This document shows positions 9,001 to 12,000 of a stretch of DNA of 64,000 bases, in pieces. This stretch comes from an uncultured delta proteobacterium (GTDB taxonomy: Bacteria; Myxococcota_A; Polyangia; Polyangiales; Polyangiaceae), in the NCBI GenBank assembly GCA_963841435.1, contig CAWJCS010000006.1, positions 1-64,000 of the forward strand, read 5' to 3'. Made by a program: the position numbers. Position 1 is the first letter of the stretch; each line of letters starts with the position of its first letter.

Positions 9001-12000
9001 CTCGAGCAGCGTCACCTGCGGGTCGTCGCGGTCGAGCGTCGCGCGCGTCTCGTCGATGCAAACGAACCCCGTCGGAACGAGCTCGACGAACGGCCCGTCG
9101 CAGCCCGGTCCGAACTTCGGCGCCGTGCCCTTGAGCGGCGCCGAGCCTCCCGTCGCCAGGTACCCAATCCACTCGCCGTTGGCGTCAGGCTCCGGATAGA
9201 TCCAGACGAAACGCGTCTTCGCGTAAACGCGCGGGCGGTCGTCCTCCGTGCGCGCGTCGGCGCGAGGCTGAGCTCCGTTCCTCGCCCCGGCGGCCAGCGC
9301 CTCCGCAACCTCGTCTTCGGCGGCTTGCCCGGCGGCCTCTTCCTCGGCGTCCTGCTCGTCCACGGCGACCACGACGGGCGACTGCATGCGCCGCTCGTCC
9401 TCGCTCGGCCAATCCGCCGCACAAGCGCGCGCCGCACCGAGCGCGAACAGGCCGAGAGCCCAGGGTTTCACACCCTTACATTACCAACTCGCGGGCGCTT
9501 CGGCCCAGCAACTCGACCCGGACCGGTGCGTCATCGCGGCCCTCCGCGGAGCACGCGTTCCGGCGCCGGTGTCACCCCCTGAACATGAGTGCGGATGAAG
9601 GAGCGTGTCGCACAGCGTGGGAAGAGGTAGCCGTCGGCAAGCCCAAGCGCGTCGAGTCGCCGGGGACGGCTGCGCGGCGTGACGCGGGCTGGTAATGGTG
9701 CGGGCGGTGAGCCCCAGGAGTGAGCTTTTGCCGCCGAAGGACGAGGATGAGCTCCTCGGGCGGGCGGGGGCGCTTTCGGGGACGACGCTCGGCGAGCTCG
9801 CGGCGCGGTTCGGGAAGGTGGCGCCCGCGGATTTGCGGCATAGCAAGGGCTTCGTGGGGGAGCTCGTGGAGCGGGCGCTCGGGGCGCAGAGGGGGTCGCG
9901 GCCCGGGCCGGATTTCGACGTGCTCGGCGTCGAGCTGAAGACGCTGCCCGTCGATGCGCGGGGCAAGCCCGTCGAGTCGACGTTCGTGTGCACGCTGCCG
10001 CTCCGGGCCGTGGGCGATCTCGAGTGGGAAGAGTCGCCCGTGCTGAAGAAGCTGTCGCGCGTGCTGTTCGTGCCGGTCGAGGGGGAGCGCGGGCGGCCCG
10101 TGGCGGAGCGGCGCCTCGGGTCGCCGCTTCTGTGGTCGCCGAGCGCGGAGGAATCAGCGGATTTGAGGGCGGATTGGGACGAGCTTGCGGGGCGCGTCGG
10201 GCGCGGTGAGGTCGAGAGCATCACGGGGCATGTCGGGCGTTTTTTGCAGGTGCGGCCCAAGGCGAGAAACTCGCGCGCGCTCGGGCGGGCGTTCGACGCC
10301 GACGGCGCCCCGTTCGAGACGCTGCCGCGGGGGTTTTACCTGAGGGCGGTGTTCACCGCGCGGATCGTCCGCGCTTACTACGCGCTCGGGCTCTGAGCGT
10401 CGAAGGCGCCGGCAGGTCGTTCGGCAGCTGTCCCGGCAAGGGCCGCAGGCCGAAATGGAAGTGATCGTGGTGGTCGCGATTGTCGTCGGGGCCCAGCTGC
10501 TCCTTGAAGAGCCCGCGCGAGCGGATGCGGCACGCGATGAGGTTGAGCGGTCCCATGCCGCTCGTGCAAATCTGGCCCCTACCGCGGTCGAAATCGTGCT
10601 CGACGCTCAGGGTCTTGCCGCCGATCTCGAAGGCATGGGCGTCGATGGCCAGGCCGTAGGCGTGCATGCTCATCCGGCCGGGGTGGCTCAGCCGGTAGAC
10701 GTACGTGCTCGAGTAGCGCACGCGCTCGACGCCGACAGAGCGAAGCTCGGGGCCGATTTCGTCGAGTGCGAGGACGAGCCGGCAGTCGGCGACCATCGGC
10801 TTCTTTTCGTACGTGAAGTAGCTGATGCCGCCGATCGGACCTTGGACGACGACGGGGGTCGGAATGCCGAGCACGGGGGCGCTCTTCGAGAAGCTCACGC
10901 CCGTCGCGCGAAGCTCGGCGAGGCAAGCGTCACCGCCCGGCAGGCTCGACGTGGCCGTGAGCGGCTGCGGCGCCTTCGTTTTCGACGCGGACGCGCGCTT
11001 CTTCGGCGCCGCCTTGGCGAGCTCGTCGTCGGAGGGTCGTCCCGCCGGCTCGGCGGTGCCGTCGACCTTGGCGGCCGCCTGTGACTCGCTTGGCTGCGCC
11101 CGCGCCTGCTCGGCTTCGAGCTCCCACGGCTCGAGCGGCAGCTCCGGGGTCGCCGCGAGCGGAGCCACGCGCGCGCAACCCGACAGGAACGCGAGGGCGA
11201 GCCCCAACGGGAGAGTCACGCCGGGGCGGGGGAGAGCGCGCGGCACGGCGTGGATTTTGGCCGACCGGAGGCGGACCGGCCAAGTAGCCGCCCGATCTGC
11301 GAGCCTCGGGGCGGCGGCGCCAGGGCCGGACGGTCTCCGATCGGGGCGTTTTTCGAGGGAGGAAGCGGTCGGGCTCACTCCAGGCGTGCCGGAGGGGCCG
11401 TCCTCGTGAGCTCGCGGACGAGGATGGTCGCGTAGCTGCCGGCGGGGAGCTCGAACGCGAGCACGAGGCGATCGGCCGCTTCCGTCACGGTGGCACCCTC
11501 CGGAAAGACGAGCAGGTCGCGGCGCGTGCCCGGCGCGTGGCGCCCGAGCTCGGCGAGCGCCTCGTTCGTGATGCCGAGCTCGGTGAGCACCTCGTTCTCG
11601 AGGTCGAGCGCTTCGCCGCTCGCGGCGCGCATCTTCGGTCCCGGCATCGGACCCGTGAGCACGAGGTCGCGCGCGGCGAAGCGCGGCGCCTCGCGCTCGA
11701 GGGACTCGACGACGAACGACGCCCCCGCGCCCGCGAGCCGCACCACTTCGCCGGAAAGCAGCCGGTCGCTGCCGGCGGTCATGCGGCGCGTGGCGTAGCG
11801 ATTGAAGACCTCGGCCTGCACGACGCTTGCGTAGAGCTTCGTGAGGAAGCGCTCGCGACCGCGCGGCAGGCGCCGCTTGCCGCCGAGAAACTCGAGCGCC
11901 TCGACGAGGTTCTGGCCGTCGCGCCCGAAGCGTTGCGTTCCAAAGTAGTTGGCCTGGCCGCGCTCCGAGAGGCGCGCGAGGATGGCGCGGGCCCGCTCGG

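What a model noticed while it worked through the whole genome (the two positions that open the first line are those of the whole stretch)
9695..10396. Complete methyl-directed mismatch-repair set (MutH + Dam-type GATC methylase) in a Polyangiales myxobacterium
g05316 is a stand-alone, full-length MutH, and the genome also has a Dam-family methylase (g02603, C3:1365112-1366008), MutS and MutL. MutH and Dam are common across Polyangiales and occur together, and in some MutH-bearing families MutL has lost its endonuclease motif, as in E. coli. Methyl-directed repair is thus not confined to Gammaproteobacteria; this genome shows the intermediate state, MutH beside a MutL that keeps its motif.
Evidence so far: 233 aa, matches E. 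coli MutH over residues 6-229, E 2.6e-72; catalytic and methyl-sensing words kept here and in 15 of 15 foreign loci, with one residue changed in 2. Order sample of 61 genomes: MutH 45, Dam-like 54; 44 both, 1 MutH only, 10 Dam only, 6 neither (all one family); Fisher p 0.0009, kin not independent. Phylum sample 64 of 151. Relatives' dam genes are single and sit among housekeeping genes. MutL motif intact here and in the 30 best-scoring loci; replaced in 7 of 20 further loci chosen for low or middling score (six of one family, one of another), partly in 1, unreadable in 3, all of these MutH+ and Dam+; intact in 15 of 15 MutH-less genomes checked.
(Added by a program. Inside this text positions count along the whole contig: contig position 1 is position 1 of the stretch shown here. 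"Call 12" and the like, gene names such as g00115 and contig names such as C1 are that model's own, and its searches are not shown. The text may have been shortened before it was handed on; [...] marks where a part breaks off. The agent that wrote the report below was given it as the finding of a first reader that could run no searches.)

Follow-up and report, generated by a model that had tools for sequence, protein, structure and literature searches.

The report
Methyl-directed mismatch repair in myxobacteria
This gene is the DNA-repair nicking enzyme MutH, thought to exist only in E. coli's wider kin; across the myxobacterial phylum it nearly always comes with a DNA methylase of the matching type, and the older nicking site of its partner MutL has often decayed, so these bacteria probably tell new DNA from old the E. 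coli way.

Summary
Confirmed and extended. The gene is an intact, stand-alone MutH: above two curated cut-offs, 52% identical to E. coli, catalytic and GATC-reading residues kept. The likely start is 9728. MutH was found in 109 of 151 order genomes and 113 of 301 phylum genomes. Of those 113, 112 carry a GATC-type adenine methylase: 94 a Dam-family enzyme, 18 (Bradymonadaceae) an unrelated orphan DpnA-type enzyme. The two methylases never co-occur (0 genomes; 22 expected). MutL's nuclease domain scores weakly in 65 of 290 genomes; 59 of these hold a MutH-family nuclease, 11 of them a second, divergent clade. Best reading: E. coli-style methyl-directed repair, replacing MutL's nuclease repeatedly; this genome keeps both. 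Against: no methylome or assay; four genomes have a dead MutL motif and no MutH found; the kinship-corrected test is not significant; E. coli's allosteric histidines are missing; no SeqA; this genome's dam lies in a restriction-like two-gene cassette. Ten literature searches showed no report of it, and a 2026 preprint calls MutH absent outside gammaproteobacteria. Databases already label these genes MutH, and this scan noted MutH in another myxobacterium earlier.

The parts
9728..10396 (+). mutH, DNA mismatch repair endonuclease, probable coding sequence (TTG start, 222 aa; 233 aa from the ATG at 9695)
   Evidence: NF003458 282 bits over cut-off 243, TIGR02248 241.8 over 229.9; PF02976; 2azo E 2.6e-72; E. 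coli K48 E56 D70 E77 K79 E91 F94 K116 R184 K186 Y212 all kept; 222-aa form in the protein collection
9716..9720 (+). AGGAG, likely ribosome-binding site 7 bases before the TTG
   Evidence: read from the sequence; function inferred
10353..11378 (-). convergent neighbour, extensin-like C-terminal domain protein; context only, no repair role claimed
   Evidence: PF06904; the same family lies beside mutH in 9 relatives' loci
11375..12619 (-). truD-like tRNA pseudouridine synthase; context, conserved gene order
   Evidence: PF01142; near mutH in 6 relatives' loci
7912..9471 (-). divergent neighbour, L,D-transpeptidase (YkuD) domain protein; shows that no methylase lies upstream
   Evidence: PF03734

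Best explanation
The gene encodes a working MutH. SHOWN by sequence: a single-domain MutH with catalytic and GATC-reading residues, not next to a methylase; the genome also has MutS1, MutL, UvrD, RecJ, ExoVII and one Dam-family methylase with E. coli Dam's GATC-contact residues. INFERRED: the methylase marks GATC adenines; just after replication the new strand is unmethylated; MutS finds a mismatch, MutL activates MutH, MutH nicks the unmethylated strand at a GATC, and UvrD plus exonucleases remove it. INFERRED for the phylum: MutH entered once and early, needs any GATC adenine methylase (Dam-family in most, DpnA-type in Bradymonadaceae), and makes MutL's own nuclease dispensable, which then decayed in many lines separately. 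This genome keeps both nicking routes.
For: Family scores. E56, D70, E77, K79, K116, R184, K186, Y212 identical in 64 of 64 myxobacterial sequences read, K48 in 63 of 64 (one truncated), E91 in 62, position 94 aromatic in 64. No dam or DpnA-type gene within 1.5-3 kb of 63 MutH loci, one weak 23% beta-class hit; not a plasmid or phage gene. 112 of 113 MutH genomes have a GATC-type methylase; Dam and DpnA-type overlap in 0 of 301, 22 expected. The Bradymonadaceae enzyme is 55% identical to the second methylase of a DpnII-type operon but is an orphan: restriction enzyme beside it in 0 of 25 loci against 42 of 55 in other taxa. 59 of 65 genomes with a weak MutL nuclease domain carry a MutH-family gene. 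Of 81 motifs read, 31 of 35 dead ones are in such genomes. The clamp-binding-like word (mostly LLFP) stays in most dead MutLs, and MutS1 is intact in 5 of 5 checked. One origin of the main clade is not rejected (AU 0.87).
Against: No methylome, knockout or assay. Kin are not independent: the pair test on the MutL tree finds only 5 supported pairs (about 3 the expected way, about 0 against, p 0.25). G322, G361, G374 (f24) and G111 have a dead MutL motif and no MutH by two searches; G243 is partly decayed without MutH. G044 and G302 have MutH and neither methylase found. 113 of 188 genomes without the main MutH also carry a GATC-type methylase, so the methylase has other uses. H112, H115 and E68, central to E. 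coli's activation model, are not kept (P, K, G here). SeqA 0 of 5. GATC is neither enriched (0.97) nor evenly spaced in this genome. This genome's MutL looks active and its dam sits in a restriction-like cassette.
Confidence: 0.78

Rival explanations
1. MutH works with MutS and MutL but mainly against foreign DNA: it cuts unmethylated GATC on both strands of incoming phage or prey DNA or of heteroduplexes, while replication errors are handled by MutL's own nuclease.
For: About half of the carriers, this genome included, keep an intact MutL motif (22 of 52 read); all 26 f29 genomes score high on it. These are predators exposed to foreign DNA (own knowledge). The GATC methylases derive from restriction-modification families.
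Against: It does not explain the repeated decay of MutL's nuclease in MutH carriers while MutS stays intact. MutH is monomeric-type, single-copy, chromosomal and unlinked to a methylase. The two roles can coexist.
Confidence: 0.12
2. MutH here is an autonomous nickase or restriction-like enzyme that does not need MutL; co-occurrence with the methylase only reflects the need to protect the chromosome, and MutL decay is unrelated drift.
For: The allosteric residues H112, H115, E68 are not kept. The pair test is not significant. Four dead-MutL genomes lack MutH. In G080 the divergent MutH-like gene lies directly behind a DpnA-type methylase, like a restriction-modification pair.
Against: The main clade passes MutH equivalog cut-offs in 87 of 113 genomes and lacks Sau3AI's second domain. 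Within families holding both states (f1, f32, f34, f41, f45) weak MutL domains fall only in MutH carriers; f8 has one exception, G111. L154 and D157 and an aromatic at 158, in the MutL-binding helix, are kept.
Confidence: 0.07
3. In this genome the pair is uncoupled: the methylase targets a longer site than GATC, or is poorly expressed, and MutH is a kept but idle gene.
For: The own dam is 42-49% identical to most relatives' dam and groups with two f1 genomes apart from the rest. It forms a cassette with a small nuclease. The same contact residues occur in related enzymes with longer sites (own knowledge, not tested).
Against: K9, Y119, N120, L122, R124, P134 of E. coli Dam are kept (roles from PMC4417163). 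The same small nuclease pairs with either DpnM-type or DpnA-type methylases, both GATC classes. It is the only D12-class methylase in the genome. MutH has every key residue.
Confidence: 0.03

Closest known systems
E. coli / H. influenzae MutH (PDB 1azo, 2azo, 2aoq; NF003458, TIGR02248) in the Dam-MutHLS pathway
   Same: 52% identity over the whole length; catalytic, GATC-reading and methyl-sensing residues; stand-alone chromosomal gene; MutS, MutL (before miaA), UvrD, RecJ, ExoVII present
   Different: Other phylum; H112, H115, E68 not kept; MutL often keeps its nuclease motif; no SeqA found; the methylase is DpnM-like (or DpnA-like in Bradymonadaceae), not an E. coli Dam ortholog (NF008152 164.7 bits against cut-off 441)
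MutL-nuclease mismatch repair (B. subtilis, Neisseria, P. aeruginosa type)
   Same: This genome's MutL has DQHAAAER, ACH, CPHGRP and a QALLFP clamp-type word
   Different: Those organisms lack MutH (PMC8744996, passages); here both are present, and the motif is dead in many relatives
DpnII-type restriction-modification systems (DpnM + DpnA + endonuclease; Lactococcus plasmid pSRQ700)
   Same: Own methylase 46% to the operon's first methylase, Bradymonadaceae methylase 55% to its second
   Different: No DpnII-type endonuclease beside either in myxobacteria (0 of 21 dam loci, 0 of 31 DpnA-type loci); only one of the two methylases per genome
Sau3AI-family restriction endonucleases
   Same: Same catalytic fold (NF040973 hit, E 2.6e-9)
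   Different: 36.5 bits against cut-off 300; no second domain; no adjacent methylase among the window's neighbours

Membership tests
MutH | Scores above curated MutH equivalog cut-offs | tested here: met
   282 over 243 and 241.8 over 229.9
MutH | Single domain of about 220-230 aa, no Sau3AI second domain, no methylase next door | tested here: met
   0 of 63 relatives' loci with a dam or DpnA-type gene (C5 methylases were not searched)
MutH | Catalytic residues E56, D70, E77, K79, K116 | tested here: met
   roles of E56 and K116 from preprint 10.64898/2026.04.21.719898; D70, E77, K79 recalled
MutH | GATC-reading and methyl-sensing residues K48, E91, F94, R184, K186, Y212 | tested here: met
   roles from passages of PMC10940147; K186 recalled
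MutH | Allosteric relay H112, H115, E68 of the MutL-activated E. coli enzyme (a mechanism detail, not a family criterion) | tested here: not met
   P, K, G here; variable in 64 sequences
MutH | Nicks only the unmethylated strand of hemimethylated GATC, when activated by MutL | not testable with these tools
E. coli-type methyl-directed mismatch repair | A GATC adenine methylase in the genome | tested here: met
   TIGR00571 over cut-off; contact residues kept; specificity inferred, no methylome
E. coli-type methyl-directed mismatch repair | MutS1, MutL, UvrD and single-strand exonucleases present | tested here: met
   (UvrD, RecJ, XseA; ExoI and ExoX not searched)
E. coli-type methyl-directed mismatch repair | MutL without nuclease motif | tested here: not met
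   intact in this genome; dead in 23 of 52 MutH-carrying relatives read
E. coli-type methyl-directed mismatch repair | SeqA, which prolongs hemimethylation | tested here: not met
   PF03925 in 0 of 5 genomes, control rang in E. coli
Orphan E. coli Dam | NF008152 equivalog, no nuclease neighbour | tested here: not met
   164.7 against 441; overlaps a PD-(D/E)XK gene, a pair seen in 52 of 80 metagenome loci
DpnA-type GATC methylase (Bradymonadaceae gene) | Closest annotated relatives are the second methylase of DpnII-type operons | tested here: met
   best plasmid hits 52-55% in dam + methylase + endonuclease operons; the label DpnA and the GATC specificity of these operons are recalled

The most novel reading that the evidence does not exclude
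Myxococcota hold a second, independent radiation of methyl-directed mismatch repair in which every part is exchangeable: the GATC mark comes from Dam/DpnM-type or DpnA-type methylases, the nick from canonical MutH, from a second divergent MutH clade (Bradymonadia families f49 and f71, apparently recruited from a methylase-nuclease pair like the one in G080), or, in family f24, from a nuclease not yet identified. MutL's nuclease was lost many times over. The replacement that happened in E. coli's ancestry would then be visible in replicate, with living intermediates, and the phylum could even be the donor of gammaproteobacterial MutH.
Probability: 0.4. Interest if true: 0.85.

Novelty: new variant of a known kind. 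Interest (0 to 1): 0.72.

Why it matters
Reviews and a 2026 preprint state that MutH and methyl-directed strand choice are confined to gammaproteobacteria. A second phylum with the system changes that, and it supplies what E. coli's relatives may not: genomes with both nicking routes, genomes with only one, and a natural swap of the methylase. That makes an old question testable, namely in which order Dam, MutH and loss of MutL's nuclease came and what MutH adds when MutL can already nick. It also predicts mutator and toxicity effects of dam or mutH changes, and effects of donor-DNA methylation, in the genetic engineering of natural-product-making myxobacteria.

Tried and rejected
RNA runs: none was listed. 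GATC statistics in the own genome: observed/expected 0.97, spacing like other 4-mers, no standout cluster; small foreign samples uninformative. E. coli MutH scan of named genomes returned only Enterobacteriaceae among the 80 kept, so the gammaproteobacterial side of the trees rests on 5 named and 17 unnamed rows, and the direction of transfer is open (the second clade test did not finish). Naming 20 distant MutH representatives gave 3 organism names, all gammaproteobacterial by label or recall. Search for the missing nuclease of f24: MutH Pfam 0 of 3, mixed alignment 0 of 3 at useful E, HaeIII-like family blank but without a ringing control, no nuclease family among 35 ORFs near methylase, mutS and mutL, most from G322. 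Published methylomes: none for myxobacteria in the supplements of PMC4752239; PMC8919816 reports no motif in three Deltaproteobacteria genomes, the one row seen being 46% GC and 42% complete, so it is not a test. Putnam 2016 (DNA Repair) is not held and was seen only as cited by PMC8744996. Rejected: that f29 refutes the model (it has a DpnA-type methylase); that f49 and f71 are MutH-less (my E 1e-30 threshold had hidden a divergent clade); contamination from a gammaproteobacterium (GC3 0.90, conserved neighbours).

Full report
1. The gene. ORF 9695-10396 (+) exists. It passes both curated MutH equivalog cut-offs (282 over 243; 241.8 over 229.9) and scores 36.5 against 300 on the Sau3AI model. 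It aligns with E. coli MutH over residues 6-229 at E 2.6e-72, 52% identity. The probable start is TTG 9728. Its neighbours are a YkuD-domain gene, an extensin-like gene, truD and a PP2C phosphatase; the last three recur near mutH in 9, 6 and 7 relatives' loci, and third-position GC is 0.90, so it is a resident gene. Among 50,697 phage and 72,556 plasmid records the full-strength hits are gammaproteobacterial records, mostly chromosome-sized or large fragments. JGI and NCBI already label close homologs MutH.

2. Residues. In 64 myxobacterial sequences (own, 13 named loci, 50 loci that I chose across families; one named locus duplicates a handle) E56, D70, E77, K79, K116, R184, K186 and Y212 are invariant, K48 is in 63 (one truncated), E91 in 62, and position 94 is F in 38, Y in 18, W in 8. 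Roles of K48, E91, F94, R184, Y212 come from passages of PMC10940147, those of E56, K116, H112, H115, E68 from parts 1-3 of 4 of preprint 10.64898/2026.04.21.719898; D70, E77, K79, K186 are recalled. H112, H115 and E68 are not conserved (P, K, G here), while L154, D157 and an aromatic at 158 in the MutL-binding helix are. Activation, if it occurs, differs in detail from E. coli.

3. Partners in this genome. One D12-class methylase, closer to DpnM (E 3e-72) than to E. coli Dam (E 3e-36), with K9, Y119, N120, L122, R124, P134 kept (roles from passages of PMC4417163). It overlaps a 132-aa PDDEXK_11 gene. That pair is a widespread cassette: a dam-family gene lies beside the nuclease in 52 of 80 metagenome loci, a DpnA-type methylase (52-62%) in 11 others. 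MutS1, MutL, two UvrD-like helicases, RecJ and XseA are present. SeqA was not found in 5 of 5 genomes. MutL keeps DQHAAAER, ACH and CPHGRP.

4. Distribution. Order sample, 151 genomes at least 85% complete: MutH 109 (plus one weak hit, G080), Dam-family 127; both 108, MutH only 1 (G044), Dam only 19, neither 23 (22 of family f15, and G080). One row, G110, is an unpublished genome; no claim depends on it. Phylum sample, 301 genomes at least 90% complete, overlapping the first: MutH 113 at E 1e-30, including 72 in other classes and 0 of 10 in the rest of the own class; Dam-family 190.

5. The methylase swap. Family f29 has MutH in 19 of 26 and Dam in 0 of 26. It carries one conserved beta-class methylase whose best plasmid hits are the second methylase of three-gene operons of DpnII type (the name DpnA and GATC specificity are recalled). 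Named records with 65-99% identical proteins are largely Bradymonadales (Lujinxingia, Persicimonas). The gene is in 35 of 301 genomes from nine families, none of them among the 190 with Dam, where 22 would be expected. It is an orphan there: endonuclease beside it in 0 of 25 bradymonad loci and 0 of 6 other myxobacterial loci, against 42 of 55 in other taxa; in G322 it follows rpsB-tsf-pyrH-frr. Of 113 MutH genomes 94 have Dam, 18 the DpnA-type gene, 1 (G302) neither; of 188 without, 113 have one and 75 none. The Fisher values (about 1e-17) ignore kinship. What counts is that the dependence survives a change to an unrelated enzyme.

6. MutL. PF08676 matched 290 of 301 genomes; 65 score weakly (E above 1e-25, my threshold, counted by hand): 48 carry canonical MutH, 11 a divergent MutH-family gene, 6 none. 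I read the motif by eye in 81 genomes that I chose, low scorers over-represented: canonical MutH 23 dead, 22 intact, 5 partial, 2 unreadable; divergent MutH 8 dead; none 16 intact, 4 dead, 1 partial. The tree needs at least 12 changes of state. The kinship-corrected pair test has only 5 supported pairs, about 3 in the expected direction and about 0 against, p 0.25: the trend is right but not significant. Within f1, f32, f34, f41 and f45 weak domains fall only in MutH carriers; all 26 f29 genomes score high.

7. A second MutH clade. The seeming exceptions f49 and f71 hold a stand-alone protein of about 215-230 aa matching PF02976 in 12 of 12 and 2 of 2 genomes searched; its best solved relative is H. 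influenzae MutH (E 3e-10). In f49 it keeps the catalytic set, K48, E91, K116, R184 and Y212 in nearly all rows but has Ala or Gly at 94; f71 has lost the C-terminal reading residues. F94A in E. coli MutH nicks all methylation states (PMC10940147), so its strand choice is uncertain. Named relatives are Bradymonadia, with more distant ones in Verrucomicrobiae and Pyrinomonadaceae. In G080 it lies directly behind a DpnA-type gene, across a contig join of 348 bases at 95%. It was sought only in the order sample and in 34 further genome searches (0 of 5 intact-MutL controls), so its absence elsewhere is not shown.

8. Exceptions. G322, G361, G374 (f24): dead MutL motif, intact MutS1, orphan DpnA-type gene, no MutH found. 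G111: dead motif, Dam, no MutH, 180 contigs. G243: partly decayed. G044, G302, G239 and the two f71 genomes: a MutH-family gene and neither methylase found. Some may be assembly gaps; f24 looks real and is unexplained.

9. Origin. A tree of 203 rows puts most myxobacterial sequences in one 133-row clade and four outside. With 71 rows the constrained tree holding 43 myxobacterial rows together was better than the free one (AU 0.87), so one origin is not rejected; 8 near-redundant rows were left out. Donor and direction are unresolved.

10. Literature. Ten searches listed no paper on MutH in myxobacteria; I judged most from listings and abstract starts. [quoted passage not shown] PMC8099122 concerns a C5-linked MutH-like gene. 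Putnam 2016 is not held; its text and supplement, subscription journals, REBASE and preprint supplements could already note such genes or methylomes.

11. Verdict. Observation confirmed; interpretation supported and widened. It is a member of the MutH family by sequence, and the genome works, most likely (0.78), like E. coli's methyl-directed repair with MutL's nuclease still in place. It differs in the source of the methylase, the lack of SeqA and the activation residues. New variant of a known kind; interest 0.72.

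Noticed in passing
L453-L467 (families f49, f71, G080): Second, divergent stand-alone MutH-family clade, often unannotated or called MvaI/BcnI-like, in genomes with dead MutL motif; lacks F94; in G080 directly behind a DpnA-type methylase.
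   Followed up: partly
L432, L434, L437, L486-L488, L492, L493 (family f24): Dead MutL nuclease motif, intact MutS1, orphan DpnA-type methylase, no MutH found: candidates for an unknown strand-nicking enzyme.
   Followed up: partly
L001:8113-9407; L343-L422; L319-L342: Cassette of a 132-aa PDDEXK_11 nuclease with a methylase; partner is DpnM-type (52 of 80 loci), DpnA-type (11) or another beta-class enzyme (13 of 24 order loci). All 32 order relatives with a PDDEXK_11 homolog are MutH carriers. Function unknown; GATC is not avoided in this genome.
   Followed up: partly
L465, L467 (family f71): MutH-like protein that has lost the GATC-reading C-terminal residues, in genomes with neither GATC methylase found: may read another site.
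   Followed up: partly
L104, L107, L110, L111, L113, L114, L118: mutH lies next to a DNA polymerase III alpha gene in 7 order loci.
   Followed up: no
family f32: All 22 genomes show two or three dam-family matches, unlike other families.
   Followed up: no
family f15: A whole family of large genomes nested among carriers has neither MutH (0 of 24) nor Dam (2 of 24): probably a joint loss, a natural control.
   Followed up: partly
whole genome: CTAG is the most depleted 4-mer (0.40 of expected); GTAC and GGCC are mildly depleted.
   Followed up: no
L001:6373-7342: An NAD-dependent epimerase gene appears split over two overlapping frames (frameshift or sequencing error).
   Followed up: no
window 12928-18266: Unrelated genes seen by eye only: patatin-like, response regulator with GGDEF, FAD-dependent halogenase-like and cytochrome c peroxidase-like ORFs.
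   Followed up: no
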